Source: Bacteroidetes bacterium GWF2_35_48
GTDB taxonomy: Bacteria > Bacteroidota > Bacteroidia > Bacteroidales > GWF2-35-48
Assembly: GCA_001769125.1 (NCBI GenBank)
Contig: MEOG01000082.1
Coordinates: 18,747-82,746 of the forward strand
Direction of reading: 5' to 3'
Length of the DNA stretch: 64,000 bases
Shown: piece after piece, positions 1-55,032 of the stretch
Position numbering within the stretch: the first letter of the stretch is position 1
Layout: every line of letters starts with the position of its first letter
Notes under the pieces: generated by a model
Database searches by the model: none
What the model was told of the DNA's origin: nothing
What the model saw: only the letters and a program-made list of their open reading frames with translations
Position numbers and translations under genes: made by a program

Positions 1-501
1 AAGACTAGGGATATAATTGAGGCGGTCATAGACTGGTTATATATACCTTTCAGAAAATTAATACCACAGCAGACCTTCCGCTATGCATTATGTGGTGGGT
101 CAAATACAGTTTTAGATATTTTTCTTTATTTTCTTACCTATAATTTTATTTTGAAGAAACAGGTTTTTAATCTTGGGTTTATTGCAATTAGTCCGCATAT
201 AGCGTCTTTTCTGATTGTTTTCCCGATAACTTTTATTACCGGGTTTATGCTGTCAAAATATATTACTTTTACTGAATCCCAAATTCGCGGGCGCATTCAG
301 CTTTTCAGATATGGAGTAACCGTTTTTGTATGTATACTTCTAAATTATTTTCTACTCAAATTATTCGTGGAATTTTTTTTATTTTATCCAACACCTTCCA
401 AAATGCTAACAGCCGGAATTGTAGTTGTGTACAGCTATCTGTCGAATAAATATTACACATTTAAAATTAAGAAAGACAAACCAATCGTAAACAAGCAATG
501 A
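1..501 (+). CDS. GtrA family membrane protein (5' partial, open from window edge)
   Basis: Frame 1 is open from nt 1 with no Met upstream of the track start at 151. Translation ..QQTFRYALCGGSNTVLDIFLYFLTYNFIL.. plus several TM helices fits GtrA-like proteins. 4-nt ATGA overlap with the next gene. Confidence 0.7.
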   Translation, partial: KTRDIIEAVIDWLYIPFRKLIPQQTFRYALCGGSNTVLDIFLYFLTYNFILKKQVFNLGFIAISPHIASFLIVFPITFITGFMLSKYITFTESQIRGRIQLFRYGVTVFVCILLNYFLLKLFVEFFLFYPTPSKMLTAGIVVVYSYLSNKYYTFKIKKDKPIVNKQ

Positions 502-1898
502 AAACCAAAAAGATTTTCAGGCTTTCATTTATTGGTATTATTTCTTTAACCGGAGTTTTGCATGGTTTGCATTTTCTTACCGGAGGTCGTATTCCGGAAA
601 TGCTGCTTCTTATATTCAGGATTTTCGCATTGAGTGTATTTGTCTGGTATGCATTCAGAAAAAAATCACTTACTACCTGGATTCTTATAAGTATGCTTGC
701 TGGCGCAGAATTCGGACACGATTTGCCCCAAATAGCAGTGCATTTGCAGGTAATCAGCAAAGTTTTTCTCAATCTTATCAAAACAGTCATTGCGCCTTTA
801 CTTTTTGCAACATTAGTTGTTGGTATTGCGGGTCATTCGAATCTGAAGCAGGTAGGGCGTATGGGATGGAAATCCATTTTGTATTTTGAAGTAGTTTCAA
901 CCATAGCACTGGTTATAGGGCTGCTTGCAATTAACATCAGTCAGGCCGGAATAGGAGTGGAGGTGCCCATAGAGTTGGCTGCATCAGGCGGTCAGGAATT
1001 TAAAAAATTAACAACAGAAGAACTTATACTGCATGTATTTCCCGAAAATATTGCAAAATCAATATATGAGGGACAAATATTGCAAATAGTTGTATTCAGC
1101 ATTATCTTCGGAATAGCAGTAGCTTTGCTGAAAGACAAACATAAAGACCCGATGCTGCGATTTTCAGAGGGCTTGTCGGAAACCATGTTTAAGTTTACGG
1201 GATTGATTATGTATATCGCACCTTTGGCTGTATTTGCAGCAATTGCAGCAACAGTAGGACACATGGGGATTGATATTTTAAAAAATTTATTTCAGTTGCT
1301 GGCAACTCTCTACATTGCGCTGTTCGTTTTTATCCTGTGTGTATTCCTGCCCATAATGCTATATTTGAAAATTCCGATAAAGAATTTTATTTGCGCCGTG
1401 TCTGAACCTGCGACACTCGCCTTTGCAACAACAAGTTCAGAATCTGCATTGCCCCGCGCTATGGAAGCCATGGAAAAGTTTGGAGTGCCACGTAAAATTG
1501 TTGCTTTTGTTATGCCCATGGGTTACAGCTTTAATTTGGATGGAACAACGCTTTATTTATCCCTTGCAACAATTTTTGTTGCGCAGATTTCGGGCATACA
1601 TTTAGACTGGGATCAACAGATAATGATTGTTATAACCCTTATGCTTACAAGCAAAGGAGTAGCAGGTGTACCGCGAGCTTCGCTTGTGATTTTATTAGGA
1701 ACAGCAGCCCAGTTTGGATTGCCCTCCTGGCCGATTTTTATTATTCTTGGAATAGATGAATTGATGGACATGGCTCGCAGCACTGTAAACCTGACAGGAA
1801 ATTGTCTTGCCACGGCTGTAATTGCAAAATGGGAAAATGAGTTTGATGAGAAGAAAGCGAGAGAGAGTTTTGAAGAGAGAGAAGGAGAGGGGGAGTAA
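498..1898 (+). CDS. dicarboxylate/amino acid:cation symporter (DAACS / SDF family, GltP/DctA-like)
   Basis: 466 aa polytopic protein with motifs TSSESALPRAMEAME, GYSFNLDGTTLY and KGVAGVPRASLV, typical of sodium:dicarboxylate symporter family proteins. Confidence 0.9.
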   Translation: MKTKKIFRLSFIGIISLTGVLHGLHFLTGGRIPEMLLLIFRIFALSVFVWYAFRKKSLTTWILISMLAGAEFGHDLPQIAVHLQVISKVFLNLIKTVIAPLLFATLVVGIAGHSNLKQVGRMGWKSILYFEVVSTIALVIGLLAINISQAGIGVEVPIELAASGGQEFKKLTTEELILHVFPENIAKSIYEGQILQIVVFSIIFGIAVALLKDKHKDPMLRFSEGLSETMFKFTGLIMYIAPLAVFAAIAATVGHMGIDILKNLFQLLATLYIALFVFILCVFLPIMLYLKIPIKNFICAVSEPATLAFATTSSESALPRAMEAMEKFGVPRKIVAFVMPMGYSFNLDGTTLYLSLATIFVAQISGIHLDWDQQIMIVITLMLTSKGVAGVPRASLVILLGTAAQFGLPSWPIFIILGIDELMDMARSTVNLTGNCLATAVIAKWENEFDEKKARESFEEREGEGE

Positions 1899-2033: not shown

Positions 2034-2073
2034 AAAAAAGGGACATTGAGCGTAGTCGAAATGTCCCTTTTTT
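2034..2073. terminator. bidirectional rho-independent terminator; hairpin loop carries the GAGCGTAGTCGAA motif
   Basis: A-run, stem GGGACAT (2040-2046) / ATGTCCC (2061-2067), then T-run. Lies between the convergent symporter and ygfK-like genes. Confidence 0.75.
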
Positions 2074-2074: not shown

Positions 2075-5000
2075 TTACATCATCTTTTCTACAACGCTGA
2101 ACAACACTTGCATTTCAGATGCTCTCCTGAGGTTTGCTTCGCGAACATCTTCTTTAAAAAATTCTGCGCGCACGACCGAAAAATCTTTTTTTCTCAATTC
2201 AATAACATAGTCGGGATGCTCGTAAACCCAATGCTCAACATGGTCGGTAAGCGTTTCAACAATACTATTTTCTTTATGTATTAAAACTGTTTTTAAGGGC
2301 AGTTTACTCAAATAAAATCCATAATCGGAAGCTTTAAAACTTTCTAATGTTAAATGCACCTTGGGCTTATCTGCAAAAGGTTTTCCGCTGGTAGGACAAA
2401 ATGTAGTGCAGTTTCCACATTCATTGCAAAAATCGGCAATGTTCAGCACCTGATATTTTTGTGTGATTTTAAAAGATTCGTCTTGTTCATAAGCAATACT
2501 TCCATCAGTTTTTTTAATTATTTTTTGAAGAGGGATTTCGCAAAGTTCTGTTTCATAAGCAGTGTTCGCTCTATTTGGGCAAACTGTTACACAAACACTA
2601 CAAACATCATCGCAATAGAGGCATCTTTCTGCTTCTTCCACTGCCTGTTCTTTTGTTAATGGTAAAACTACAGCATTAAAGCCCACTCTCTTTTCAACAG
2701 CTATTTCATTCAAATGTATTCCATGTTTTCTGTAGCTTTTCCTGCTGATGTACTCATTAAAAGATAATCCTTTTTTGTTTTCCAAAGGCGCTGAGTTGAA
2801 TTGCTTTTCAGCTTTTTTAATTATTGCGTTGGCAACTTTTCTTCCATCAGCAACAGCTTTTATTACTGTAGCTCCGCCCCTCATTGCATCGCCGCCGATA
2901 AATACATTTTGAATTTTTGTTTCGTATAAATCCTGCGTATTTTCAATAAGAGAAGCATCGGTAAAATCTGCAACAACATCTTGTCCTAATGCAGGAATAA
3001 TTGTATCGCAGAAAATGTCAAAATCCGATCCTTCAATTTTTACGGGCTTCAATCTTCCTTTCGCATCTTTGCCGGAGAGGCTCATTTTGCTGCATCTCAA
3101 GCCTGCTACTTTTCCATTTTCAGGAATAATTTTTTCGGGCGCTGTCAGCTCAACCACAGGAATACCTTCTTCCAGTAATGCTTTTACTTCCTCAGGGTCT
3201 GCCGGCATTTCGTATCGCGTGCGACGATAAACAACCGAAACATTTCCGGGAGATATACGATTTGCTGTTCGTGCGACATCCATTGCAGTATTTCCTCCTC
3301 CAATCACTAAAATATTTTTGCCAAGATTTACATTTCTACCCTGTCTGACATCTGATAAAAATTTTAAAGAATCAATCACTCCGTGTGCATCTTCGTTTTC
3401 AATGCCTAAATCTTTTGCTTTCTGCGCTCCTACTGCAATGTAAACAAAATCATTTTCTTTTTGAATGGCTGCAAATTTTTCTTTACTTACCGGAATGTTG
3501 TACAGAATTTTTACTCCCAGATTTTGTATCCGGTCAATATCTTTTTTAATTGCATCAGCAGTGAGCCTGAACGAGGGAATCGCATCAGAAACCATACCTC
3601 CCGCTATATTTTTTGTTTCGTAAACAGTTACCTCAAATCCTGCAAGATTCAGAAAAAAAGCGCAGGAAAGACCCGACGGTCCCGCTCCTATTACAGCCAC
3701 TTTCAGTCCGTTTTTATTTTTTGGAACAAGCATCGCATCGCTGTTGTTTTGTTCTGAAATAAAGCGCTTGACTTCACGAATTAAAACAGGATTATCATAA
3801 TTTATTCGTGTGCATTTTGATTGACATTGATGATCGCACACCATACCCAAAACAGTAGGAAATGGATTAGTTCGTGTAATTACTTCCCACGCTTTCTGGA
3901 AATCGCCTTTTGCTGTATGATAAAGATACTCGGGAATGTCCTGATTCGTCGGGCAGGTATCAACACAGGGAGCATGAATGCAGTCAAAATGATGCAGTGG
4001 CCGCAAGTTCTTTATATTTGGCGAAGTAAACGGATCTCTTTTAAATAAAGAATTTTCAATTACAGAAACAGCATATTTATTCAAATATTCAAGCGACCCG
4101 TTTATGTCTGAAACGCTCAAGGTCTTCATTTCATCGCAATATTGTTTCAGACGACCATATCCTCCCGGTTTTAAAATATCGGAACACACTGTTACAGGGC
4201 GAAGTTCGCATTTTAAAATATCATTAATATTGAAACAATCGGCACCTGCAGAAAAAGAAATATCAAGAGCACCGCTGAATTCATTTTGCAATTTTGCAGC
4301 AAGATTAATACTTATCGGATGCAGTGCCCTGCCGCTCATATACATCATTTTCTCGTTCGGCGGAAAAACATCTTTGTTATTGACACTTTCAAGCGTATTT
4401 GTAAGTTTCAATCCGAAAAAAACATTATTTTTCTTAGCTGCTTCTGTAAGTGATTTTATTAATTTTAATGCGTCTGGGTATTTCAAATCGTGCGAGAATG
4501 CTTCATCAGGGACTTCTGTTTTAAAACCAAGATTTGTATTTAGTATATTTCGCAGCTCATCTTTCCCTAATAGAGTTGGATTTAACTTTATTGTTGTATG
4601 AAATTTTTTCTCGTCAATAAGATAAAGTCCGATTTTTTCAATTTCTTCGGGCGGACAACCATGCATGGTAGACAGCGTAATGGTATCTGAAATGCAATCG
4701 GGAATTTCAATTTTTAATATATCTGGATAAACAGACGCAAGCTGTTTAATTTTTTCTTCTTTTTCGATTTTGCAATTCTGCATTTTGCTGAAAAACCACT
4801 GAACATTTTCCTTAAGAATACCTTCAAGATTGTAACCAGCACTCATGTTAAATATACAGCCGACTTCTTCGCTCTTCCACCCGAATAAATCTTTTAAAAC
4901 ATGAATAATAATCCATGCATCAAGGTATTGATGAAAGGACTGGCATATCTTTAATTCCTGCGACCATTCACAGTTATAGCCTTCATCCTGCATGTCAATA

Positions 5001-5293
5001 CAGGGTTTGCTGACGTCAAGTTCATCAAGCGTCTGAATGGTTTTCAGCTCCATATAACGCGCCCCGCAAAGCCATGCGGAAATAATATTCTGCGACATTT
5101 GTGTGTGCGGGCCTGCTGCAACACCAATCGGCGTTTCTAAAACTTTTCCGAAACGTGTTAAACGAAACGAATCTGTAGCTTCCGGTTTAAAAAATAATTC
5201 TTTCGGAATGCCAAAGATATGGCCATGTTTATAATCTTTCAATATTATTGAAAGCAATTGCGCGGTCGGGATAATTGTAAATTTGTCTGACAT
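2075..5293 (-). CDS. ygfK: YgfK-type multidomain flavoprotein/Fe-S oxidoreductase (putative selenate reductase subunit YgfK family)
   Basis: 1072 aa. N-terminal dihydroorotate/dihydropyrimidine-dehydrogenase-like barrel (PIGVAAGPHTQ, TMHGCPPEE). Central GltD-like part (CIHAPCVDTCP, VAVIGAGPSGLSCA, LVIGGGNTAMDVAR). C-terminal 2x[4Fe-4S] (CLYCDDVCSVCVTVCP, CNECGNCTTFCP). Confidence 0.75.
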   Translation of the reverse strand: MSDKFTIIPTAQLLSIILKDYKHGHIFGIPKELFFKPEATDSFRLTRFGKVLETPIGVAAGPHTQMSQNIISAWLCGARYMELKTIQTLDELDVSKPCIDMQDEGYNCEWSQELKICQSFHQYLDAWIIIHVLKDLFGWKSEEVGCIFNMSAGYNLEGILKENVQWFFSKMQNCKIEKEEKIKQLASVYPDILKIEIPDCISDTITLSTMHGCPPEEIEKIGLYLIDEKKFHTTIKLNPTLLGKDELRNILNTNLGFKTEVPDEAFSHDLKYPDALKLIKSLTEAAKKNNVFFGLKLTNTLESVNNKDVFPPNEKMMYMSGRALHPISINLAAKLQNEFSGALDISFSAGADCFNINDILKCELRPVTVCSDILKPGGYGRLKQYCDEMKTLSVSDINGSLEYLNKYAVSVIENSLFKRDPFTSPNIKNLRPLHHFDCIHAPCVDTCPTNQDIPEYLYHTAKGDFQKAWEVITRTNPFPTVLGMVCDHQCQSKCTRINYDNPVLIREVKRFISEQNNSDAMLVPKNKNGLKVAVIGAGPSGLSCAFFLNLAGFEVTVYETKNIAGGMVSDAIPSFRLTADAIKKDIDRIQNLGVKILYNIPVSKEKFAAIQKENDFVYIAVGAQKAKDLGIENEDAHGVIDSLKFLSDVRQGRNVNLGKNILVIGGGNTAMDVARTANRISPGNVSVVYRRTRYEMPADPEEVKALLEEGIPVVELTAPEKIIPENGKVAGLRCSKMSLSGKDAKGRLKPVKIEGSDFDIFCDTIIPALGQDVVADFTDASLIENTQDLYETKIQNVFIGGDAMRGGATVIKAVADGRKVANAIIKKAEKQFNSAPLENKKGLSFNEYISRKSYRKHGIHLNEIAVEKRVGFNAVVLPLTKEQAVEEAERCLYCDDVCSVCVTVCPNRANTAYETELCEIPLQKIIKKTDGSIAYEQDESFKITQKYQVLNIADFCNECGNCTTFCPTSGKPFADKPKVHLTLESFKASDYGFYLSKLPLKTVLIHKENSIVETLTDHVEHWVYEHPDYVIELRKKDFSVVRAEFFKEDVREANLRRASEMQVLFSVVEKMM

Positions 5294-21580: not shown

Positions 21581-21634
21581 GTTGCAGGTTGCAGGTTGCA
21601 GCCGTAGACTATCAGAGTCGAAGTCCAGGTTGCT
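21581..21634. repeat. GGTTGCA heptad words plus GAGTCGAAG-type hairpin element
   Basis: GTTGCAGGTTGCAGGTTGCAGCCGTAGACTATCAGAGTCGAAGTCCAGGTTGC, between the serA stop and the four-helix-bundle gene start. Confidence 0.8.
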
Positions 21635-22570: not shown

Positions 22571-22589
22571 ATTTTTTGTGTTTTAGTTT

Positions 22590-22748
22590 TAATGTTACAA
22601 GTTGCAGGTTGCAGCCGTAGACTGAGCGGAGTCGAAGTCGAGGTTGCAGGTTGCAAGTTTGACCGTAGACTGAGCGGAGTCGAAGTCGAGGTTGCAGGTT
22701 GCAAGTTTGACCGTAGACTGAGCGGAGTCGAAGTCAAGGTTGCAAGTT
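22590..22748. repeat. tandem repeat, about 2.8 copies of a 48-bp unit (hairpin motif + GGTTGCA words)
   Basis: Unit CCGTAGACTGAGCGGAGTCGAAGTCGAGGTTGCAGGTTGCAAGTTTGA starts at 22615, 22663 and 22711. It fills the serC-serA spacer and abuts the serC stop codon. Confidence 0.95.
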
Positions 22749-23814: not shown

Positions 23815-23890
23815 GGTATGAAGTTTTAAAATTTAACGTAATTATTTTGCGACTAAAGTAAGAATAAAAAAAGATTTAGAGAATGTTATA

Positions 23891-23992
23891 GGGCAGATTG
23901 GGAGATGGTATTTGGTAATTGGTACGTAGAATCGTTCCATACTTCGACTTCGCTCAGCACAGGTGGAACGATTCTACAGTACAGTACAATGA
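23891..23992. repeat. GGTAATT-type word repeats flanking a 13-bp-stem hairpin whose loop carries the inverted GAGCGAAGTCGAA motif
   Basis: Stem TAGAATCGTTCCA (23927-23939) / TGGAACGATTCTA (23964-23976). The loop contains TTCGACTTCGCTCA. Confidence 0.85.
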
Positions 23993-24020
23993 CGTTGAAT
24001 GGGTTCGGCGCAATCAGCGA

Positions 24021-24737
24021 TTAAAAAGAATGATTTACAAGTACATTGTCTTTAAGAATAGGCAAAACGGGGGCAAGATTGAACGAAAGGCAATAAGGGA
24101 TGAGATGGCTCATGTGAAGATTTTGCAGTCTTCTTTTATGGGATGCTTTTTCAAGATAGGCAACAGGGTCTTTTTTACATAAGTTCCATAAATCTATTGC
24201 TGCGAGTGTAGCATCACATTGGGTTTGATGTATTCCTGATTCAAGCAAAGAGGAAGCAAGGGCTCCTGCAAAGACAGAATCTTCAAGATTAAATCGGTTT
24301 TTCCAACCTGAACAAAAAATAAGAACGGGTGCATTTTCGATAGTCAGCCAGCGGGTTAAAATATCAATATTAAGAAAAGAACCAATGACAAGTTTTTTTG
24401 CATTTTTTGCCATTGAAATTGCCTGTGTACCGTTTGTAGTACTGTAAGCGACTCTTTTTCCTGCAACAATTTCGGGAGTAAACAAATCTGGAGAATTTCC
24501 AATATCAGCAAAATCGGGTTTAATTCCATCACGTTCGGCTGCTACAACGTAGCCCTTGTCTTTCATCTGCCGCGCTTCTTCAATTGTTGCAACGGGAATC
24601 AGTTCTTTAACTCCATTGTGAAAAGCAGCACAAATAGAAGTGGTTGCTCTGAAAATATCTACAACAACAACAATGCTCTCATCGGTTTTATATAATGGGA
24701 ACAGAGCCGGAGAAAAGCAAGTTTCGATATCAGCCAT
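24021..24737 (-). CDS. comB: 2-phosphosulfolactate phosphatase family protein
   Basis: 238 aa. N-terminal ..VVVDIFRATTSI.. motif typical of the ComB family. Confidence 0.8.
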   Translation of the reverse strand: MADIETCFSPALFPLYKTDESIVVVVDIFRATTSICAAFHNGVKELIPVATIEEARQMKDKGYVVAAERDGIKPDFADIGNSPDLFTPEIVAGKRVAYSTTNGTQAISMAKNAKKLVIGSFLNIDILTRWLTIENAPVLIFCSGWKNRFNLEDSVFAGALASSLLESGIHQTQCDATLAAIDLWNLCKKDPVAYLEKASHKRRLQNLHMSHLIPYCLSFNLAPVLPILKDNVLVNHSF

Positions 24738-26010: not shown

Positions 26011-26137
26011 GCAGGGGGTTGCAAGTAAGGGGTAAGTGGTAATGGGAGGGAGAGACGTTGCATTGCAACGTCTGTACCGCCGCAGCGGATTGTAAGCGGT
26101 AATAGGTAATTGGGTGTGGGAGGAGTTGCAGGGTAAT
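26011..26137. repeat. G/T-rich word repeats (GGTAAGT/GGTAATG/GGTAATT) flanking a 21-nt palindrome
   Basis: AGACGTTGCATTGCAACGTCT (26053-26073) plus CCGCCGCAGCGG. Lies in the divergent gcvT/csp spacer. Confidence 0.8.
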
Positions 26138-26327
26138 TATTATTGTGATTTGTAATTATTCAGCTTCATTTTCAAATGATTACAAGACAATTTCTTTGGT
26201 TTAATTTGATTCCACCGAGACGGATGATAATTTTTATTGCCTATAAAATCAAAAAAATCAAAAATAATAAGCTTTATTTCAATTATTTTTTTTATCTTGC
26301 GCCCATTAATTTTTAAAAAATAATATT

Positions 26328-26835: not shown

Positions 26836-29800
26836 CTAAATTTTTATCCCGACAACGGTGATATCATCGGTTTGCTCAAAACAATTGCCATCTCCGAATT
26901 TCCAATCCTCAATTATTTTGTCCATAAATTCTTGTTGTTCCTGCATGGGCTTTTCATAAATTTCAACCAGCATTTGCTTGAAGCGTTTCGACATAAATTT
27001 TTTTCCTTTGGGACCACCGAACTGGTCGGCATAGCCATCGGAAAGCATATAAAATGCATCGCCTTTTTTCAATTGAAATTTCCTGCTTGAAAAATGCGAC
27101 ATGTTTTCATAAATTGCAATAGGCATTTTATCTGGTTTCAACTCTATTAGGCGTGCTCCGGCATGTTCGATGGCTGCTTCTTCTCCTTCAGTATCGGGAT
27201 GAGTTGTAATAATATAAAGCGGGTTGTTCGCACCGGAGAATTCAACAATATTCGTATCCAAATCCAATGCGCAGAATGATATATCCATTCCGTCTTTTTG
27301 CTCTCCCGGAACACCTTTCTGCTGCAAAGAAGTAATGATGCAATCCCTCAATTCATCAAGCACCCGGCTGGTTGATATAATTTCAGGGCGATTGACAATA
27401 TCATTCAGAAAAGAAAGTCCCAGCATACTCATAAAAGCTCCGGGAACGCCATGACCTGTACAATCGGCAGCCGTTACAAAAATGAAATTATTTTTCCTCA
27501 TCATCCAGTAAAAGTCGCCACTCACAATGTCTTTCGGCTTAAACAAAATAAAGAAATCCTGTACGGCATTTTGAATTAATTCAATGTTTGGCAATACGGC
27601 AGTTTGAATACGTCTTGCGTAACGAATACTGTCTGTTATTTCTTTATTTTTATCTTCTACGATGAGCTTCTGATTTTCAATTTCATTTCGTTGCGCAATA
27701 ATTTCCTCATTTTGCTGATGCAGTTCTTCATTCTTTTCAAGAATTTCCTTTTTCTGTACTTCCAGAACAACATTTTTTTCTGCTATTTCGCGGGTACGCA
27801 CTCTTACTTTTTCTTCAAGAATACGTTTGTCCCTGCGTAATTTTTGCAGGCGCAATCTTACAAAAAGAAAAAAGCCGAGAAAAACAAATACCACGCATGC
27901 GATATAAAACCATGTTGTTTTCCAGAATGGAGGCTTTATTACGAATGAAAAAATAATGGGTTCTTCATTCCATTTGCCGAATTTATTTACAGAGATTACT
28001 TTAAATTTATATTCGCCGTGAGGAAGTCCGGGATAAACAGCTTCTCCGTCCCGGCGTGCTGGCGACCAAGTGTTGTCGAGACCTTCGAGCATATACTTGT
28101 ATTGAACTTTATCCGGATTATAATACGAAATTCCGGCAAACTTAAAAGTGAAATGATTGTCTGCATGCCCAAGAATCAACTTAAAGGGCAAAGAAAACCA
28201 TGAAGAAACAGAGTCCACACGTTTTTTCCATTCTGTATTTTCAAAAAACAAATTAATGTTTGTAAGATGAATTTTTGGCTCAGCAAGGTTTGTTTTATCA
28301 AGAGACGGATTGTAGCAGGTAAGACCTTTAATCGTACCGAACCAAATTCGATTCTGATTATCCTTGCAAATAGCATTGCTATGATTTTCGATGCTTGTAA
28401 AGCCATCCGATTCATTAAAATTTATTACATTTATTACTTGTTGTTCTGCCCCAAGATAAACTTTGTCAAAGCCCTTGTCTGTTGCGACAATCAGCAGATT
28501 TTCATTCTCAAAAATAAGCGACGAAATATTATTAGAGCTGAGAAGACTGTCGTTAAGAACAGGAGTAATAGGTGTTTTTCCTTTATGATTGATGTCAAAT
28601 TTGAAAAGTCCGCTTCCGAAAGTACCTATCCAGATATTGCCATAGCGGTCTTCTGCAATACAGTTAATTTGTTTGTTAAGCAATCCTTCCGCGTCATCGT
28701 AATAAATAAATTGCAGATGATTATTTCTTCTAAGCCCGCCATAAGTACCATACCAGATCTCTCCCTTTTTATCTTCAAGAATTGTAAGCGTGTAATTAAA
28801 AAGTCCGTATTGGTCATCGTCCTGATATATGGGGAAAAAAACTTTTCCGTCGTAACGCAGCATTCCATCGCTTGTGCCAATCCACACGATACCCTTGGAG
28901 TCAACAAAAATACTTTTTGCAGGATTTGAAAGCATAGGAACGCTTAATTCATCATAATTGATAAATATATTTCCCACTTTTTTAGAAACTCCTTTTTCTG
29001 TTGCAATCCAAAGTGCTCCATCGTTTCCGAGGCACAGGTAATTAACAAAATTATCTACCAAACCATGCTGTGTTGTGTATTTTCTGAAAATCGGCTTTCC
29101 TTTATTGAAACTCATCTGCACCAAACCGCCTCCCTGTGTGCCAATCCAGAAGTGCCCGTTTTTATCCTGCACAACAGAAAGGATGTCTTTTGCCGGTAAG
29201 CCGTCTGTTTCATTATAATGAATAAAATTTTCTCCGAGAAATTGACACAAACCGCTGCCAAATGTCCCCATCCATATATTTTTTTCATTATCTTCAAATA
29301 GTTTATAAACCTGATTTCCTGCCAAACCGTTTTTAGTAGTAATATGCGTAAAACTATTCTCGGCAAATTTATTGATTCCGCCTTTATCTGTTGCAAACCA
29401 TAGCGTACCCTGACTATCGCAAAGAATATCCCAGACAGTTACATCATTCATTCCATTATTAGTGCTGTACGACACAACTTTTCCGGAATCTTTGCCCAGT
29501 ATATTTATCTTAAATGCGCCTGCATCCTGAGATCCGAACCAGAGATTTCCCTTTGTATCTTTTTCGATAGTGAGAATAAAATTTGAGGGAATATCTCCAT
29601 AAGCCTGATCGAGTTTTTTCAGAGAAGAAATTTCATCTCCCTTAAACGATAAAATATTAATACCTCCGTAAAGTGCCAACCACAAACGCTTTGAGCTATC
29701 TTCAAAAATATCAAAAACGTAGTTTGTCTGAATACGATCCTGATCTTTCGTGTAGGTTTTTATATTTACAGAATCGTCTTTGAAATACATTATACGGCTT

Positions 29801-30234
29801 AAGCCCCCACCCGCTGTTCCAACCCAGATTGTATTATCAGAATCTTCAAAAATCTTCAGTATAGGATATGCCGGCAGCCCTTTTGATTTATCAATTTTAT
29901 GAAAAGTCTTTCCATCATATATAGAAATACCGTCGTCTGTACCAAACCAGATATTCCCTTTTTTATCTTCATGCAGTGTACGTACAACATTTCCGATAAG
30001 ACCTTTTCTTTTATTAAATGTAACAAAGTTTTTCCCATCAAAACGCGAAGCACCTCCGCCTCCTGTGCCAAGCCATAAGTATCCTCTTGAATCCTGAATG
30101 ATACTATAGATTTCTGATTTAGATAAACCTTTTTCTACGGAATAAGTACGAATGTTGTATTGCTGTGAAAATGCAGGTTTTATCAATAATAAAACGAAGA
30201 CCAAATAGATATATTTATAGAAATATTTGCTCAT
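26836..30234 (-). CDS. sensor protein phosphatase: periplasmic two-component-regulator beta-propeller repeats + Y_Y_Y domain, TM, coiled coil, cytoplasmic PP2C/SpoIIE domain
   Basis: 1132 aa. Signal/TM at the N-terminus. More than 10 propeller repeats (..WFGT..GG..). Y_Y_Y motif (VQYKYMLEGLDNTWS). TM segment WFYIACVVFVFLGFFLFV. SpoIIE motifs (SGDFYW, DCTGHGVPGAF, LSDGYADQFGG). Confidence 0.85.
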   Translation of the reverse strand: MSKYFYKYIYLVFVLLLIKPAFSQQYNIRTYSVEKGLSKSEIYSIIQDSRGYLWLGTGGGGASRFDGKNFVTFNKRKGLIGNVVRTLHEDKKGNIWFGTDDGISIYDGKTFHKIDKSKGLPAYPILKIFEDSDNTIWVGTAGGGLSRIMYFKDDSVNIKTYTKDQDRIQTNYVFDIFEDSSKRLWLALYGGINILSFKGDEISSLKKLDQAYGDIPSNFILTIEKDTKGNLWFGSQDAGAFKINILGKDSGKVVSYSTNNGMNDVTVWDILCDSQGTLWFATDKGGINKFAENSFTHITTKNGLAGNQVYKLFEDNEKNIWMGTFGSGLCQFLGENFIHYNETDGLPAKDILSVVQDKNGHFWIGTQGGGLVQMSFNKGKPIFRKYTTQHGLVDNFVNYLCLGNDGALWIATEKGVSKKVGNIFINYDELSVPMLSNPAKSIFVDSKGIVWIGTSDGMLRYDGKVFFPIYQDDDQYGLFNYTLTILEDKKGEIWYGTYGGLRRNNHLQFIYYDDAEGLLNKQINCIAEDRYGNIWIGTFGSGLFKFDINHKGKTPITPVLNDSLLSSNNISSLIFENENLLIVATDKGFDKVYLGAEQQVINVINFNESDGFTSIENHSNAICKDNQNRIWFGTIKGLTCYNPSLDKTNLAEPKIHLTNINLFFENTEWKKRVDSVSSWFSLPFKLILGHADNHFTFKFAGISYYNPDKVQYKYMLEGLDNTWSPARRDGEAVYPGLPHGEYKFKVISVNKFGKWNEEPIIFSFVIKPPFWKTTWFYIACVVFVFLGFFLFVRLRLQKLRRDKRILEEKVRVRTREIAEKNVVLEVQKKEILEKNEELHQQNEEIIAQRNEIENQKLIVEDKNKEITDSIRYARRIQTAVLPNIELIQNAVQDFFILFKPKDIVSGDFYWMMRKNNFIFVTAADCTGHGVPGAFMSMLGLSFLNDIVNRPEIISTSRVLDELRDCIITSLQQKGVPGEQKDGMDISFCALDLDTNIVEFSGANNPLYIITTHPDTEGEEAAIEHAGARLIELKPDKMPIAIYENMSHFSSRKFQLKKGDAFYMLSDGYADQFGGPKGKKFMSKRFKQMLVEIYEKPMQEQQEFMDKIIEDWKFGDGNCFEQTDDITVVGIKI

Positions 30235-30329: not shown

Positions 30330-30417
30330 GTTGCAAGTTTCGGATTTGCTTAACTTATCAGGTTGCAGGTTGCATAGTAACTGTGGGTTGAGCGAAGTCG
30401 AAACCCAGGTTGCAAGT
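30330..30417. repeat. GGTTGCA words plus hairpin with GAGCGAAGTCGAA loop
   Basis: GGTTGCAGGTTGCA..TGGGTT-GAGCGAAGTCGAA-AACCCA-GGTTGCAAG, between the queD stop and the phosphatase gene start. Confidence 0.85.
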
Positions 30418-30483: not shown

Positions 30484-30897
30484 TTAATCACCAAAATATT
30501 CTACAGAATTTTTATCTGTTTCTTCGAGACGAATACAATGCAATTGAACGCCCAGCACTTTAATATGTGGCTCTAATGTTTCCCAGATTGCAATGGCAAT
30601 ATTTTCTGAACTTGAAATTCGTCCTTTCATAAAATCCACATCTATATTGAAATTTTTATGATCGGCTTTTTCTACAATATACTCCTGAATAACCTTGCTG
30701 AGTGTTTTTAAATTAACAAGCACGCCTGTTTGTTTATCCACTTCGCCTTTAACAGTTACAATAAGATTGTAATTATGCCCGTGCCAGTTAGGATTGGCGC
30801 ATTTTCCAAAATATTTTTCATTTTCTTCGACAGACCAGTCGGGGCAATAAAGCCTGTGCGCTGCATTAAATTGTTCTTTTCTTGTTAAGTATATCAT
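30484..30897 (-). CDS. queD: 6-carboxy-5,6,7,8-tetrahydropterin synthase
   Basis: 137 aa. FNAAHRL, GKCANPNWHGHNY and catalytic-site spacing typical of the QueD/PTPS family. Confidence 0.9.
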   Translation of the reverse strand: MIYLTRKEQFNAAHRLYCPDWSVEENEKYFGKCANPNWHGHNYNLIVTVKGEVDKQTGVLVNLKTLSKVIQEYIVEKADHKNFNIDVDFMKGRISSSENIAIAIWETLEPHIKVLGVQLHCIRLEETDKNSVEYFGD

Positions 30898-38155: not shown

Positions 38156-38205
38156 GGTTGCAAGTTACAGGTTGCAGGGTGATTGAGCGGAGTCGAAATC
38201 ACCCT
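38156..38205. repeat. GGTTGCA words plus hairpin with GAGCGGAGTCGAA loop
   Basis: GGTTGCAAGTTACAGGTTGCA-GGGTGAT-TGAGCGGAGTCGAA-ATCACCC. The last stem base overlaps the stop codon of the 38204-39013 gene. Confidence 0.9.
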
Positions 38206-39013
38206 ATGATATTGCAGCATTCTCCAACTCATTAATTTTTTCCATGGCTACAGCGCCTGCAACAACAGAAACAATTGCAGCAAAAGGAGCGAGCAGTGTT
38301 CCTATTCCACAAAGAGGCATTATTATCAACAACGAAAGAACCATGCCATTTCCAATTACCACCCATTTATATTTTCTAAGGATTCTTACACTCTGCGAAA
38401 TATTTCTTTTTCTTCTTTCATTACTGTAATCCATAAATGAGAAACCGTAAAAATAAGATGTAATAAAGAAAATAATTATCGGGCTGATGATTGCAATGAG
38501 CCATCCCAAAACAGGAATGATTGAAAGCAAAAGCAGTCCAAGCACAATAGATAATTGAATTAGCAAATTACGGATCGCAATAAGAACGCCACGTACAACA
38601 TCGCGCATTAATTGATTAATGTTAAAGGGATAATTTTTTTCGGTACTAATTTTTTCGGTTTTTTCTGATAAAAATGCAAGAACCGGAGACATTATTATAA
38701 GAATAATAAATCCACCGAAATAAGAAAACAGGAAAAAGAAAATGAATTTAAAAATTATCCAGAGAACGCCGGTCATAACGCTTTTGAGAATTCCGGAGCC
38801 CCAGAATGTTGCATTTTCGATATTTGTTGCCTGAAAAATTTCGGTTTTAACCCAATCTGTAAGAATTTCAATCGAGCTAAAACCTGCAGCAAATAGTGCT
38901 ATCAATAACAATAGTGGAAAGAGAAAAGCCCACCAGAGACTTTTTGAGAAGATAATAGAAAAAGCATTTCCATAAGTAGAAAAACCTAATCCTAATTGTG
39001 AGAAAAATTTCAT
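38204..39013 (-). CDS. EI24/CysZ-like domain membrane protein
   Basis: 269 aa, about 6 TM. Central ..IMSPVLAFLSEKTEK.. motif resembles the EI24 domain. Confidence 0.55.
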   Translation of the reverse strand: MKFFSQLGLGFSTYGNAFSIIFSKSLWWAFLFPLLLLIALFAAGFSSIEILTDWVKTEIFQATNIENATFWGSGILKSVMTGVLWIIFKFIFFFLFSYFGGFIILIIMSPVLAFLSEKTEKISTEKNYPFNINQLMRDVVRGVLIAIRNLLIQLSIVLGLLLLSIIPVLGWLIAIISPIIIFFITSYFYGFSFMDYSNERRKRNISQSVRILRKYKWVVIGNGMVLSLLIIMPLCGIGTLLAPFAAIVSVVAGAVAMEKINELENAAIS

Positions 39014-39087: not shown

Positions 39088-39292
39088 ACTCAATAGATTT
39101 ACAATTGTTGGTTCAATAGATGTTCGGTAGATGTACAATAGATGTTCGATAGTGCAACGATAGATGTACAATTGTTTATTCGATAGGTGTACAATTGCTT
39201 CTTCAATAGATGTACAATAGATATTCAATAGAGGTACAATTGTATTTCTATCGAATTCCTATTGTATTCCTATTGAACATCTATTCCATTCC
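39088..39292. repeat. array of about 18 degenerate 11-nt units (..CAATAGATG / GTACAATTG..); the last units are inverted
   Basis: Direct reading: GTTCGGTAGAT GTACAATAGAT GTTCGATAGTG CAACGATAGAT GTACAATTGTT ... then TTCCTATTGTA TTCCTATTGAA CATCTATTCCA. Shares an identical 22-mer with 57519-57540. Confidence 0.85.
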
Positions 39293-51527: not shown

Positions 51528-51564
51528 TACATGAGATTATAAAATTTTGGAAATGTTTTTTAAA

Positions 51565-51691
51565 GTCGGCAATCGGAAAAGTCGGCAGTCGGCAGTCAGA
51601 GAGTCGGCAGTCGGCAGTCGGCAGTCAGAGAGTCGGCAGTCGGCAGTCGGATTAAGTAAGACTGTAGACTGAAGACTGAAGACTGAAGACT
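51565..51691. repeat. heptad arrays: (GTCGGCA)n with GTCAGAG interruptions, then (AGACTGA)n, forming imperfect inverted arms
   Basis: GTCGGCAGTCGGCAGTCAGAGA x2.. followed by AGACTGTAGACTGAAGACTGAAGACTGAAGAC. Lies inside the gldA-gldF spacer. Confidence 0.9.
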
Positions 51692-52520: not shown

Positions 52521-54041
52521 ATGAAAACAAAAAAATCAATCCTCTATTACATTGCGGTTGTAATTGGAATATTGGTTCTCATAAATATTCTGGCCGATAA
52601 ATTTTTCTTCCGCCTTGACTTTACGGAAGACAATCGTTATACATTGAGCAACGCAACAAAAGATATTCTTGTCGGCATCAATGAAACAGTAACCATTCAG
52701 GCCTACTTTTCAGAAGATCTTCCTCCGGATATTGCCAAAACAAAAAGAGATTTTAAGGAATTGCTTGTTGAATATGCTTCACGCGCAAATGGAAAAATTG
52801 TATTTGAATTTATCAATCCGAATGTTGATGAAGCTACAGAACAAAAGGCAATGCAGTCTGGCGTGCAGCCTGTGGTAATCAATGTTCGTGATAAAGATCA
52901 GATGAAGCAGCAGAAAGCGTATCTAGGCGCGGTAATTCAAATGGGAGAGCAAAGCGATGTGATTCCTTTTATGCAACCGGGCTCTGCAATGGAATATTCG
53001 CTTTCTTCAAGCCTGAAAAAATTATCTGTTCAGGATAAACCTTCTATCGGATTTTTGCAGGGACACGGAGAACCAAATTTGAGAGCTATGCAGCAGGTGA
53101 TGGGCGCTTTAACAATTTTATACAATGCGCAACCTGTAACACAAAATGATACAGTCAATGAATTAGATAAGTTTACAACCCTAGCAATTGTCGCTCCAAC
53201 AGACTCATTTCCCGCAATACATTTACAGCAACTCGAAGAATTTTTATCCAAAGGAAAAAATCTTGTTATTGCTTTAAATAGAGTGAAAGGAGATTTTCAG
53301 ACATTAGCCGGTAGCGCAGTAAATACAGGAATTGAAAGCTGGCTTGCATCCAAAGGGCTAATTGTTGAAGAAAATTTTCTGGTAGATGCAAACTGCGGAA
53401 CAGTAGGTGTAACGCAGCAACAGGGTATGTTTTCTTATCAGACACAAATGAAATTTCATTACCTGCCTGCAATTACGAATTTCATGGAACACCCCGTTAC
53501 CAAAGGGCTGGAGTCCGTATTAATGGCTTTTGCAAGTCCTATTCAATTTAAAGGAGGCACGCAAGGAGTAAGCTATACCCCGCTTGCAAAAAGCTCTGCA
53601 AAATCGGGAACTGTTCCCGCGCAAACTTATTTTGACATTCGTAAACAATGGACAGATCGTGATTTCACAATGCCCGGACAGGTTGTAGCAGCATTACTTT
53701 CAGGTAAAATTTCCGGCGACAGAGATTCAAGAATAATACTTATTTCTGACGGAGATTTTGCTGTAAACGGCGAAGAAAGACAGGCCATGCAACAGCAACC
53801 TGATAATATTTCGCTTCTTGTAAATTCCATTGACTGGCTTTCAGATCAGACAGGTTTGATTGAATTGCGCACCAAAGGAGTAACATCACGACCCATTGAC
53901 CAAATGGAAGACGGAACAAAAACTTTGCTCAAATGGATTAATTTTCTGATACCAATTTTACTGATTATAATATTTGGATTTATACGCTTCCAGCGCAACA
54001 GAAATTTAAGAATAAAAAGAATGCAGGAGGGATATATTTAA
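52521..54041 (+). CDS. gldG: GldG family ABC transporter-associated protein
   Basis: 506 aa. N- and C-terminal TM anchors with a large periplasmic domain. Positioned after gldF. Confidence 0.75.
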   Translation: MKTKKSILYYIAVVIGILVLINILADKFFFRLDFTEDNRYTLSNATKDILVGINETVTIQAYFSEDLPPDIAKTKRDFKELLVEYASRANGKIVFEFINPNVDEATEQKAMQSGVQPVVINVRDKDQMKQQKAYLGAVIQMGEQSDVIPFMQPGSAMEYSLSSSLKKLSVQDKPSIGFLQGHGEPNLRAMQQVMGALTILYNAQPVTQNDTVNELDKFTTLAIVAPTDSFPAIHLQQLEEFLSKGKNLVIALNRVKGDFQTLAGSAVNTGIESWLASKGLIVEENFLVDANCGTVGVTQQQGMFSYQTQMKFHYLPAITNFMEHPVTKGLESVLMAFASPIQFKGGTQGVSYTPLAKSSAKSGTVPAQTYFDIRKQWTDRDFTMPGQVVAALLSGKISGDRDSRIILISDGDFAVNGEERQAMQQQPDNISLLVNSIDWLSDQTGLIELRTKGVTSRPIDQMEDGTKTLLKWINFLIPILLIIIFGFIRFQRNRNLRIKRMQEGYI

Positions 54042-54117: not shown

Positions 54118-55032
54118 ACGATTAAAAATATGCAGGAAGGATATATTTAATTAAAAAAATAATACCGCTCCTATCTACGGAGCTGTATCCTGATAAAAAG
54201 ATTTTTTGTACCATAATTTCGTGCCTCTGGCAATCATAAAAATAGTTCCGTAGGAACAACATTACGATAGCCCTGTAAGGGCGACATTACGATAGTTCTA
54301 TTATAAAAACGTCATAAAATGAATTGTGAAACAAATTGCAATTAAATATTTAAAACAATATATATACTAATCTAAACAAATAACAAATGCCAAACACATA
54401 TACACAAATAAATATTCATGCAGTTTTTGCTGTAAAACATCGTGAAAACATCATTACCCGTAATTATAGAGATGAATTGCACAAATATATTTCAGGCATA
54501 CTCACGAATTTAAAACAATATCCCCTTGCTGTAAATGGGTGGAAAGATCATGTGCATATTTTTTTTGAAATGCAGCCAACATCAAACCTGTCAGATATAT
54601 TACAAATAGTAAAAGCAAATTCATCAAAATGGATTAATACAAATAATTTTGTAAAGGGTAAATTTAACTGGCAAAATGGTTTTGGAGGATTTTCTTATTC
54701 AAAATCTCAAAGAGCCAATGTAATCAGATATATTGTCAATCAGGAACAGCATCATGAAGGCATTTCATTTAAAAAAGAGTACCTGAATTTGTTGGAGAAA
54801 TTTGAAATTGATTTTAAAGATCAGTATTTATTTGAATTTTATGAATAATAATAAATACCGCTCCTATTGAGTAGGTAGCTCCATAGGAACTACGATTAAA
54901 AATATGCAGGAAGGATATATTTAATTTAAAAAATAATGCCGCTCCCACGGAGCTGTATCCTGATAAAAAGGCGATATTACGGTAGCCCTGTAAGGGCGAT
55001 ATTACGGTAGTTCCATAGGAACGACATTATCG
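54118..55032 (+). mobile_element. RAYT island: IS200-like Y1 transposase gene bracketed by direct repeat blocks rich in small hairpins
   Basis: Blocks 54118-54200 and 54892-54970 share an identical first 35 nt and the rest is near-identical with a 4-nt indel. Blocks 54242-54298 and 54971-55032 share GTTCCNTAGGAAC and GCCCTGTAAGGGC hairpins with GAYATTACGRTA spacers. Confidence 0.7.
54387..54848 (+). CDS. REP-associated tyrosine transposase (RAYT; IS200/IS605 TnpA-like Y1 HUH enzyme)
   Basis: 153 aa. QINIHAVFAVKHRE N-terminus, HUH motif HVHIFF, catalytic-Tyr helix RYIVNQEQHH. No tnpB partner. Confidence 0.85.
   Translation: MPNTYTQINIHAVFAVKHRENIITRNYRDELHKYISGILTNLKQYPLAVNGWKDHVHIFFEMQPTSNLSDILQIVKANSSKWINTNNFVKGKFNWQNGFGGFSYSKSQRANVIRYIVNQEQHHEGISFKKEYLNLLEKFEIDFKDQYLFEFYE

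What the first reader, a model, noticed from the sequence alone, without database searches (positions are those of the whole stretch)
38156..38205. Hairpin family with an invariant 13-nt loop (GAGCGNAGTCGAA) and co-varying stems, at least 8 copies in 64 kb
The same loop sequence sits on different but always self-complementary stems:
- GGGACAT/ATGTCCC (2040-2067).
- TGGGTT/AACCCA (30384-30407).
- GGGTGAT/ATCACCC (38177-38204).
- A 13-bp stem TAGAATCGTTCCA/TGGAACGATTCTA with the motif inverted in the loop (23927-23976).
- Weaker-stem versions at 21601-21630 and three times in 22615-22748.

A conserved loop with compensatory stem changes indicates selection on a structure, either an RNA or an ssDNA hairpin recognised by a protein. 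It is not simply a duplicated sequence.

Most copies lie directly 3' of minus-strand genes, and two touch the stop codon (38204, 22747). They are flanked by 7-nt word repeats (GGTTGCA or GGTAATT). The orientation relative to transcription is not fixed, because the 23.9-kb copy is inverted. That argues for a DNA-level element or a bidirectional terminator rather than a strand-specific riboregulator.
Basis: seen in the sequence. Interest (0 to 1): 0.65.

Follow-up and report, generated by a model that had tools for sequence, protein, structure and literature searches.

The report
REP-like hairpin repeat, conserved cap
The hairpins are real: they belong to a short intergenic DNA palindrome family (like the REP repeats of E. 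coli) whose 14-base centre is identical in bacteria from many phyla and probably folds into a very stable mini-hairpin, while how it spreads is still unknown.

Summary
TGAGCGNAGTCGAA occurs 7 times exactly (0 expected), plus one degenerate paralogue. All copies are intergenic and the flanking arms are complementary but differ between copies.

The family is not specific to this Bacteroidota MAG. The same 14-mer, flanked by 3-4 co-varying base pairs and often a 5' (T/C)GTCA tag, is found in isolates and MAGs of more than 10 phyla. There it occurs as single copies, inverted doublets and tandem arrays. A covariance model built only from foreign copies recovers exactly the 7 window copies.

The "loop" is probably a structured cap: a T-A pair, tandem G·A pairs, G-C, C-G and a GNA triloop. 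N frequencies (A>G>C>T) follow the published stability order of GCGNAGC DNA mini-hairpins.

Copies are not kept at four of five spacers compared in a relative, tandem copy number varies between assemblies of the same species, and orientation relative to genes is unbiased across taxa. An IS110-family element inserts exactly at the core edge in another phylum.

Best reading: a REP/BIME-type DNA palindrome, closest to the GTAG- and CGTC-tagged REP superfamilies, and not a strand-specific riboregulator. The RAYT at 54387 has different REPs of its own. No mobilising enzyme was found. No Rfam family and no paper in the searched library matches the motif.

The parts
2034..2073 (+). Copy 1: A6, GGGACAT, TGAGCGTAGTCGAA, ATGTCCC, T6. 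It lies between the convergent genes 498..1898(+) and 2075..5293(-, ygfK-like). It is the only copy that also has the shape of a bidirectional intrinsic terminator.
   Evidence: Covariance model R1 gives 29.8 bits, E 2e-7. Folded as DNA, -12 kcal/mol, z -6.3.
21587..21633 (+). Degenerate paralogue of the tandem unit: GGTTGCA x2, CCGTAGACT, ATCAG, AGTCGAAGTCCAGG, TTGC. The 5' half of the cap is replaced.
   Evidence: Repeat family D8 links 21566-21610 to 22579-22623 at 82% identity. R1 does not recover it.
22600..22746 (+). Tandem array of the 48-nt unit CCGTAGAC-TGAGCGGAGTCGAA-GTCGAGG-GGTTGCA-heptamers, with cores at 22623, 22671 and 22719. It fills the serC-serA spacer and ends 2 nt from the serC stop codon. 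Each unit carries a GTAG tag 5' of a 3-bp inner stem (GAC/GTC).
   Evidence: D5; 2.8 copies, 97% matches. Copy number is 2, 3 or at least 4 in other assemblies of the same species.
23927..23976 (-). Copy in reverse orientation. It has a 13-bp outer stem TAGAATCGTTCCA/TGGAACGATTCTA, a 5' CC bulge, an inner stem TGC/GTA and the core TGAGCGAAGTCGAA. TGGTAAT heptamers lie beside it at 23906-23924.
   Evidence: R1 gives 28.3 bits. Fold -15.5 kcal/mol, z -6.8.
30361..30414 (+). Copy with stem TGGGT/ACCCA around TGAGCGAAGTCGAA. GGTTGCA x2 lies upstream and GGTTGCA x1 downstream. It sits in the spacer between 26836..30234(-) and 30484..30897(-).
   Evidence: R1 gives 29.7 bits.
38156..38204 (+). The flagged copy: GGTTGCA, AGTTACA, GGTTGCA, then GGGTGAT-TGAGCGGAGTCGAA-ATCACCC. 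The last stem base overlaps the stop codon of 38204..39013(-).
   Evidence: R1 gives 29.7 bits. The sequence is identical in six other assemblies of the species.

Best explanation
These are copies of a REP/BIME-type repeat: a short extragenic DNA palindrome.

Shown here:
- Each copy has a variable stem around an invariant 14-nt centre, TGAGCGNAGTCGAA.
- The same module is found in many bacterial phyla, where it usually also has an unpaired 5' tag (T/C)GTCA and a 3-bp inner stem YYC/GRR.

Inferred:
- On the strand written above, the centre folds into a compact cap. The pairs are T-A, sheared G·A and A·G, G-C, and C-G closing a GNA triloop, with one bulged T. This is a version of the extraordinarily stable GCGNAGC DNA mini-hairpin.
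- The cap makes the hairpin form whenever that strand is single-stranded.
- The elements are gained, lost and amplified at the DNA level. The likely route is the one used by REPs and REPINs: a trans-acting enzyme that handles single-stranded DNA hairpins (RAYT/IS200-like), followed by local slippage or unequal recombination that builds tandem arrays and the flanking heptamer runs.
- They are tolerated just downstream of genes. There some copies, clearly 2040-2067, can also act as terminators or as hairpins at mRNA 3' ends.

The mobilising enzyme was not identified.
For: 1. The family is real and sharply defined. There are 7 exact cores against 0 expected and none at 1-2 mismatches. All lie in the 10.7% of the window that is noncoding.
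2. The same core occurs across phyla. Of 172 copies, 132 have 4 or more consecutive flanking pairs. Among viral-contig hits the figure is 59%, against about 5% expected.
3. Pair counts on 146 foreign copies show about 88% pairing at the three flanking positions, with 20-73 double changes per pair. None of 500 shuffles reaches this, and slid controls fall to 33-45%.
4. A covariance model built only from foreign copies finds exactly the 7 window copies, at E about 1e-7. The next hit has E 1.2.
5. Support for the cap structure. The only variable position is the triloop apex. Its frequencies are A .38, G .33, C .16, T .14. This is the same rank order as the measured Tm of GCGNAGC mini-hairpins, A>G>C>T (PMC13037366). 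Both TGAG and CGAA fit the pyrimidine-GA-purine context that favours sheared tandem G·A pairs (own knowledge).
6. REP-like genomic behaviour. Copies are mostly intergenic (93 against 39 by crude ORF calls). Orientation shows no bias: ++26, --23, convergent 28, divergent 17. Inverted doublets occur in Sphingomonas and many MAGs. Tandem arrays have periods of 24-160 nt.
7. Turnover. In a relative with identical gene order (SerC 85% identical, YgfK 66%), copies are missing from four of the five spacers compared (comB-serC, serC-serA, serA-PF05635 and PF05635-DUF1015). It has a variant copy where the window has none. The 48-nt unit is present 2, 3 or at least 4 times in assemblies of the same species.
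8. RAYT-associated REPs with the same cap type are published. The Coxiella REP is GTAG-GTTGGGC-TGAGCTTGCGAA-GCCCAAC, and Enterobacter REP loops read AAGCGgAGCGC (PMC2817692 Table 1).
9. An IS110-family element (PF01548 and PF02371) is inserted exactly at GTCATC-CT-GAGCGG, with CT at both junctions. The complete IS is seen at three loci of a Cloacimonadales genome, and one junction is seen at a fourth. IS110/IS621-type elements use REPs in the same way (own knowledge).
Against: - No transposase or other gene was found flanked by these elements. phmmer with the window RAYT against 14,170 ORFs near about 330 copies gave one weak hit that does not flank a copy.
- The RAYT in this window carries different REPs.
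- Di Nocera et al. likewise found no dedicated transposase for the most similar tagged REPs.
- No clean filled-site versus empty-site pair in near-identical flanks was obtained, so mobility is inferred from turnover only.
- Four of the six window loci lack any 5' tag, and the window holds no inverted doublet.
- One locus (3' of ygfK) holds a copy with the same orientation and the same N in a relative whose YgfK is only 66% identical. This could mean long-term retention under selection rather than turnover.
- The cap structure is argued from sequence and literature. The nearest-neighbour folding used here treats it as an open 12-nt loop and gives the two strands nearly equal energies.
- The invariance of the core across taxa is partly by construction, because the scans required the exact core. 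However, non-ascertained copies in the same loci are 54 exact against 13 with one mismatch.
Confidence: 0.55

Rival explanations
1. RNA-level element. The hairpins act in transcripts as terminators, 3'-end stabilisers or processing sites, and the conserved centre is a binding site for an RNA-binding protein. Stems drift under selection for pairing.
For: - All window copies lie 0-111 nt downstream of a stop codon, and two touch it.
- Copy 2040-2067 has A6 and T6 flanks typical of a bidirectional terminator.
- A copy is present 3' of ygfK in both the window and a relative whose YgfK is 66% identical.
- REPs are known to stabilise upstream mRNA and to affect translation when close to stop codons (own knowledge).
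Against: - Across taxa there is no orientation bias relative to flanking genes (26 against 23).
- No T-run enrichment is seen downstream in the position profile.
- In this window 5 of 6 loci put the complement UUCGACUNCGCUCA in the mRNA. That strand cannot form the cap and leaves a 12-nt loop.
- No Rfam family matches, even at E up to 10.
- Copies are not kept at four of five spacers compared.
Confidence: 0.15
2. Core-only 'nano-element'. Only the roughly 14-20-nt core moves or is written into pre-existing palindromes and heptamer arrays by an unknown mechanism. Stems are then perfected by template switching at the stable cap (quasi-palindrome correction). This would resemble the small dispersed repeats described in Nostoc.
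For: - The core is identical while the flanks are unrelated.
- Removing the 14-mer from copies 2040, 30384 and 38177 leaves perfect palindromes: GGGACAT|ATGTCCC, TGGGT|ACCCA and GGGTGAT|ATCACCC.
- Copies sit inside heptamer arrays here and in other Bacteroidota, for example L133, L156 and L200.
- The spectrum is sharply peaked on the exact core.
Against: - No empty palindrome orthologous to a filled one was found.
- The pan-bacterial consensus has an asymmetric 5' tag and a preferred inner stem YYC/GRR. This suggests that a unit larger than 14 nt is conserved.
- The Nostoc paper could not be read, so the comparison rests on memory.
Confidence: 0.2
3. tRNA-derived sequence. The reverse complement TTCGACTNCGCTCA is a T-loop plus T-stem plus the start of the acceptor stem, so the copies would be relics of tRNA 3' ends such as integrase att sites or tRNA-like retro-copies.
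For: Several viral-contig hits are genuine tRNA 3' halves ending in CCA that carry this exact 14-mer on the other strand.
Against: - ARAGORN finds no tRNA in the window.
- The 5' T-stem partner is absent.
- The position equivalent to the universally conserved C61 is the one variable base.
- The flanks pair with each other, not as a T-arm.
Confidence: 0.03

Closest known systems
REP / BIME / REPIN elements with RAYT (Y1 HUH) transposases, as in E. coli, Pseudomonas, Stenotrophomonas and Coxiella
   Same: - Short extragenic imperfect palindromes, many per genome, mostly 3' of genes.
- They occur as single copies, inverted doublets and clustered arrays, with an unpaired 5' tetranucleotide next to the hairpin.
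- The Coxiella RAYT REP (GTAGGTTGGGC-TGAGCTTGCGAA-GCCCAAC) has the same TGAGC...GCGAA cap, and enterobacterial REP loops contain GCGNAGC.
- They are used as targets by IS110-family elements.
   Different: - Classical REP families conserve the stem and are specific to a species or genus. Here the cap is conserved across phyla and the stem is free.
- The commonest tag is (T/C)GTCA, not GTAG.
- No RAYT flanked by these elements was found, and the RAYT in this window has different REPs.
CGTC/TGTC-tagged REP superfamily (Di Nocera, De Gregorio and Rocco 2013, PMC3733652)
   Same: - An unpaired CGTC or TGTC tag at one end, often followed by AT.
- Found in Bacteroidetes, Chlorobi and Alphaproteobacteria among others.
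- Mostly doublets and single copies between co-directional or convergent genes.
- No dedicated transposase.
   Different: - The peptides encoded by their families CGTC-1 to CGTC-4 (VIPAKAGI, VIAGLDPAIH, VIPWLDHGI, RHSELVSGS) imply different cores. None corresponds to TGAGCGNAGTCGAA.
- No CCA tail is seen here.
- The window copies mostly lack the tag.
Extraordinarily stable DNA mini-hairpins GCGNAGC / C-GNA-G (Hirao and colleagues; review PMC13037366)
   Same: - The core contains C-GNA-G closed by G-C, with N free.
- The observed N usage A>G>C>T equals the published stability order.
   Different: - Here one T is bulged between the two closing pairs, and tandem G·A pairs extend the helix.
- The stability of this exact variant has not been measured.
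Small dispersed repeats and heptamer (STRR) arrays of Nostoc (Elhai et al. 2008, recalled from memory; the paper is not held)
   Same: Very short conserved sequences embedded in hairpin contexts and in tandem heptamer arrays, scattered through intergenic regions, with no coding capacity.
   Different: Those are described as lineage-specific cyanobacterial families. Sequence identity to this core could not be checked.

Membership tests
REP/REPIN-RAYT system | Short (20-40 nt) imperfect palindrome, extragenic, many copies | tested here: met
   Seven exact copies plus one degenerate copy in 64 kb, all in the 10.7% that is noncoding. Hairpins of 28-50 nt.
REP/REPIN-RAYT system | Conserved unpaired 5' tetranucleotide head (GTAG/GTGG) | tested here: inconclusive
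   GTAG precedes only the tandem and degenerate copies. The four other loci have no tag. The cross-phylum consensus tag is (T/C)GTCA.
REP/REPIN-RAYT system | Family-specific conserved stem sequence | tested here: not met
   Stems differ in every independent copy, and the centre is what is conserved.
REP/REPIN-RAYT system | A cognate RAYT gene flanked by the same REPs | tested here: not met
   The RAYT at 54387..54848 (PF01797) is flanked by GTAGCCCTGTAAGGGCGA and GTAGTTCCATAGGAACGA types. No RAYT lies next to copies in about 2 Mb of other loci. The whole genome was not available.
REP/REPIN-RAYT system | Inverted doublets (REPINs) | tested here: inconclusive
   None in the window. Common in other genomes: Sphingomonas, the L260 relative and many MAGs.
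REP/REPIN-RAYT system | Evidence of mobility (insertion or excision polymorphism) | tested here: inconclusive
   Copies are absent from four of five spacers compared in a relative, and present at another spacer. Tandem copy number is 2, 3 or at least 4 between assemblies. No clean filled/empty pair was found. The closest relative (96%) could not be retrieved.
CGTC/TGTC-tagged REP superfamily | Unpaired CGTC/TGTC tag followed by a stem starting with AT | tested here: inconclusive
   Met by the cross-phylum consensus: -8 T/G/C, -7 G .47, -6 T .64, -5 C .60, -4 A .51. Not met by the window copies.
CGTC/TGTC-tagged REP superfamily | Stem of 8-9 bp, loop of 4-5 nt, CCA tail, cores of families 1-4 | tested here: not met
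   No CCA tail. The nominal loop is 6 nt even if the G·A pairs are counted as stem. Published family peptides imply other cores.
Intrinsic (Rho-independent) terminator | G+C-rich stem with a short loop, followed by a T run | tested here: inconclusive
   Met only at 2034-2073, which has A6 and T6 flanks. The other copies have no T run, and there is no T enrichment downstream in 160 copies.
Described structured RNA families (Rfam 15) | Match to a curated covariance model | tested here: not met
   No hit at gathering thresholds over the window. No relevant hit at E up to 10 over 21500-24100.
tRNA or tRNA-like element | Cloverleaf or at least a T-arm with conserved G53-C61 | tested here: not met
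   ARAGORN finds none. The C61-equivalent position is the variable N, and no T-stem partner is present.
Nostoc small dispersed repeats (SDR) | Sequence identity to SDR1-8 and their insertion contexts | not testable with these tools
   The paper is not held. Text searches for the motif found nothing relevant.

The most novel reading that the evidence does not exclude
One 14-nt DNA mini-hairpin cap is kept letter-for-letter in more than 10 bacterial phyla because a conserved and still unidentified protein reads it on single-stranded DNA. That protein could be a mobilising HUH-type enzyme or a host replication or repair factor. If so, this family is the handle for finding the missing mobilisation system of the 'orphan' tagged REPs. 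It would also be a natural, cross-phylum landing pad for IS110/bridge-RNA recombinases.
Probability: 0.15. Interest if true: 0.8.

Novelty: new variant of a known kind. Interest (0 to 1): 0.5.

Why it matters
REP-type repeats are usually treated as lineage-specific sequences defined by their stems. Here the centre is fixed and the stems are free, and the same centre recurs from Bacteroidota to Proteobacteria, Cyanobacteria and candidate phyla.

This suggests that recognition or stability resides in a mini-hairpin cap. It gives a simple, testable structural hypothesis: a GNA triloop plus tandem G·A pairs on one DNA strand only.

It also offers a search key for the enzyme that spreads 'orphan' REPs, an open question since 2013.

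On the practical side, these elements break assemblies, create spurious small ORFs (peptides such as LSEVEG or FDFAQ), and serve as insertion sites for IS110-family elements.

Tried and rejected
- Rfam at gathering thresholds and at E up to 10 gave no family.
- Text searches of about 8 million papers for the core and its common flanks found nothing relevant.
- The Elhai 2008 paper could not be read.
- BLAST of a 30-nt consensus against plasmids, to look for filled and empty sites, mostly gave chance matches inside genes of Rhizobium and Sinorhizobium. Only the Sphingomonas replicons hold real copies.
- The same approach on cultured phages gave nothing real. The many IMG/VR hits are therefore environmental or host-derived contigs.
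- Association with the PF05635 four-helix-bundle gene next to the 21.6-kb copy was rejected. No homologues lie near copies elsewhere.
- Association with RAYT genes in cis was not seen.
- The closest relative of ygfK (96% identical) could not be located on any contig, so no near-identical empty site was obtained.
- Hammerhead, K-turn and tRNA T-arm readings of the core were considered and dropped, because required positions do not fit.
- GC skew follows gene strand in this window, so it says nothing independent about replication direction.

Full report
**1. What is in the window**

The motif GAGCGNAGTCGAA occurs 7 times exactly: 2048+, 22624+, 22672+, 22720+, 23943-, 30390+ and 38185+. Dinucleotide-preserving shuffles give none. 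Allowing up to two mismatches adds no further site, so within this genome the core is all-or-none. A T always precedes the motif, and this T can pair with the last A. The unit is therefore T-GAGCGNAGTCGA-A.

The three copies at 22.6 kb are a 48-nt tandem repeat. The 21.6-kb element is a paralogue of that unit with GAGCGG replaced by ATCAG.

GGTTGCA heptamers are enriched (22 against 6.9 expected) and flank most copies. All copies lie in the 10.7% of the window that is noncoding, in 6 of the 35 spacers of 40 nt or more. They sit 0-111 nt downstream of minus-strand stop codons (0-82 nt for the copy of each locus nearest the stop). Neighbouring genes are ordinary metabolic genes: serC, serA, comB-like, ygfK-like, PTPS and cysZ-like.

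**2. Source organism**

The window comes from contig MEPE01000016.1 of GCA_001769395.1, a groundwater Bacteroidota MAG.

**3. The family is not local**

The exact 14-mer with N=G occurs in more than 120 IMG/VR contigs with 31-69% G+C. Of these hits, 59% have 4 or more consecutive flanking pairs, against about 5% expected by chance. A subset without such arms are genuine tRNA 3' halves on the opposite strand.

They come from Bacteroidota, Cloacimonadales, Chloroflexi, Cyanobacteria, Acidobacteria, Alpha-, Beta- and Gammaproteobacteria, Eremiobacterota, Paceibacteria, Planctomycetes, Myxococcales, Clostridia and others. Isolates such as Lacibacter, Pedobacter, Algoriphagus, Chryseobacterium, Flavobacterium, Dyadobacter and Rasiella are included.

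Those loci hold 172 copies. Copies with flanking stems are mostly noncoding. Stemless matches are mostly inside ORFs and are probably chance.

The profile of 160 unique copies is t-G-T-C-A-y-y-C | TGAGCGNAGTCGAA | G-r-r-y. This describes an unpaired 5' tag, a 3-bp inner stem and the core. About 18% of copies also have an outer stem of 5 bp or more beyond a bulge, against about 3% in a shuffled control.

**4. Covariation**

On 146 foreign copies, the three pairs next to the core are about 88% paired, with 20, 73 and 71 double changes. None of 500 shuffles reaches the observed score, and sliding the partner drops pairing to 33-45%.

A covariance model built from these foreign copies finds exactly the 7 window copies (28-30 bits, E about 1e-7) and nothing else below E=1.

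**5. The "loop" is probably a cap**

Written T0 G1 A2 G3 C4 G5 N6 A7 G8 T9 C10 G11 A12 A13, the core allows these pairs: T0-A13, sheared G1·A12 and A2·G11, G3-C10, and C4-G8 closing a G5-N6-A7 triloop. T9 is bulged.

C-GNA-G and GCGNAGC are the published extraordinarily stable DNA mini-hairpins. N may be any base, with stability A>G>C>T (PMC13037366).

The one variable position of the core is that apex, and its usage is A .38, G .33, C .16, T .14. The complementary strand has no such structure. The folding programs treat the centre as an open 12-nt loop and give both strands similar energies. The cap is therefore an inference from sequence and literature, not a computed result.

**6. Behaviour in genomes**

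Across 94 intergenic copies, contexts are ++26, --23, convergent 28 and divergent 17. There is no orientation preference relative to transcription. No T-run enrichment is seen downstream.

Inverted doublets 20-100 nt apart are frequent. An example is the Sphingomonas parapaucimobilis doublet between bfr and der. Tandem arrays with periods of 24-160 nt also occur.

Relative GCA_016212695.1 (SerC 85% identical, YgfK 66%) has the same gene order gcvT-comB-serC-serA-PF05635-DUF1015. It has none of the window's copies in those spacers, and it holds a variant copy in a spacer where the window has a plain terminator.

There is one exception. 3' of the ygfK orthologue the relative has an inverted doublet, and its first copy shares orientation and N with window copy 2048, although the arms are unrelated.

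The 48-nt unit is present 2, 3 or at least 4 times in different assemblies of the same species, and contigs break there.

In loci ascertained by one exact copy, the additional copies are 54 exact against 13 with one mismatch.

**7. Links to mobile-element biology**

The RAYT-like protein at 54387 is a Y1 transposase (PF01797). Its flanks carry different GTAG/ATAG-tagged palindromes, GTAG-CCCT-GTA-AGGG-CGA and GTAG-TTCC-ATA-GGAA-CGA. Only the tandem and degenerate copies of the present family carry a GTAG tag (GTAG-AC-TGAGCGG).

No RAYT or PF05635 homologue is enriched near copies elsewhere.

Published RAYT-flanking REPs include one with the same cap type (Coxiella, GTAGGTTGGGC-TGAGCTTGCGAA-GCCCAAC) and enterobacterial ones with GCGNAGC in the loop (PMC2817692).

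Di Nocera et al. (PMC3733652) defined GTAG- and CGTC/TGTC-tagged REP superfamilies. The latter occur in Bacteroidetes, Chlorobi and Alphaproteobacteria and have no dedicated transposase. Their four CGTC families have other cores, judging from the peptides they encode.

In a Cloacimonadales genome a 1377-bp IS110-family element (PF01548 and PF02371) is inserted exactly between GTCATC and GAGCGG, with CT at both junctions. The complete IS is seen at three loci and one junction at a fourth, and intact doublets occur elsewhere in the same genome. This matches the way IS110/IS621-type elements use REPs (own knowledge).

**8. Interpretation**

Shown:
- A sharply defined palindromic module occurs across phyla.
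- Its arms co-vary.
- It lies in intergenic regions.
- Its orientation relative to genes is unbiased.
- It forms doublets and arrays.
- It turns over between related species, and copy number varies between assemblies.
- It is used as an IS110 target.

Inferred:
- Spread by a mechanism acting on single-stranded DNA hairpins, as for REPs.
- Secondary use as terminators or mRNA 3' hairpins, which is plausible for 2034-2073.

Not found:
- The enzyme that moves the element.
- A clean empty site.

The RNA-riboregulator reading is disfavoured by the lack of orientation bias, and by the fact that in this window the mRNAs mostly carry the strand that cannot form the cap. A core-only insertion or templated-mutation model stays open. 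A tRNA origin is essentially excluded.

**9. Novelty**

The kind (REP/BIME-like repeats) is known. This family is not in Rfam, and its sequence does not appear in the searchable literature.

It differs from described REP families in two ways. It conserves the cap rather than the stem, and it shares one core across many phyla. I rate it a new variant of a known kind, of moderate interest.

Noticed in passing
window 54012-55025: The RAYT-like Y1 transposase gene (54387..54848, PF01797) is bracketed by its own small GTAG/ATAG-tagged palindromes (GTTCCGTAGGAAC, GCCCTGTAAGGGC, GTTCCATAGGAAC) and by duplicated 55-nt blocks at 54117-54171 and 54891-54945. This looks like a classical 'REPtron' unrelated to the GAGCG family.
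   Followed up: partly
window 39090-39292 and 57343-57577: Long arrays of 11-mers (CAATAGATGTA-like) are followed by arrays of a roughly complementary 11-mer (ATTGTATTCCT). They form large imperfect hairpins in two spacers 18 kb apart.
   Followed up: no
window 51562-51691 and 61636-61734: An AGTCGGC heptamer array (about 10 copies) is followed by AAGACTG x5. A related block with AGTCGGC and TGAGGAC heptamers lies 10 kb away. This is another heptamer-array type that occupies the plus-strand gene half of the window, where no GAGCG copies occur.
   Followed up: no
window 26017-26140: In the 937-nt spacer, a G-rich heptamer region (GTAAGGG-like, GGTAATT) surrounds a perfect 10-bp palindrome, AGACGTTGCA-T-TGCAACGTCT (26053-26073).
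   Followed up: no
window 21115-21510; L243 6210-6605: A PF05635 (23S rRNA intervening-sequence / four-helix-bundle) gene lies between serA and DUF1015. It is kept at the same position in a relative whose SerC is 85% identical. No link to the hairpin family was found elsewhere.
   Followed up: partly
window 22615-22758; L247-L254: The 48-nt tandem unit is present 2, 3 or at least 4 times in different assemblies of the same species, and two contigs end inside it. This is either real copy-number variation or assembly collapse.
   Followed up: partly
L129 4916-6308, L131, L231 (Cloacimonadales CAXXPU01): A 1377-bp IS110-family insertion sequence is inserted exactly at GTCATC-CT-GAGCGG of the hairpin core, with CT at both junctions. 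The same genome also holds many intact inverted doublets of the hairpin.
   Followed up: yes
L260 5755-5835 (GCA_016212695.1): 3' of the ygfK orthologue, the relative carries an inverted doublet of the family with typical GTCAT tags. Its first copy has the same orientation and the same N as window copy 2048, but unrelated arms. This could be long-term retention of the core at one site.
   Followed up: partly
L002, L010, L041, L051, L057, L066, L080, L102 (IMG/VR contigs): Phage-contig tRNA genes carry the same 14-mer on the opposite strand, as T-loop, 3' T-stem and the start of the acceptor stem, ending in CCA. This explains the stemless matches in the viral scan.
   Followed up: partly
window about 39000: Gene orientation switches from minus to plus at the 39.0-39.4 kb spacer, and GC and AT skew change sign there. 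Skew tracks gene strand, so it is unclear whether this marks a replication origin.
   Followed up: no
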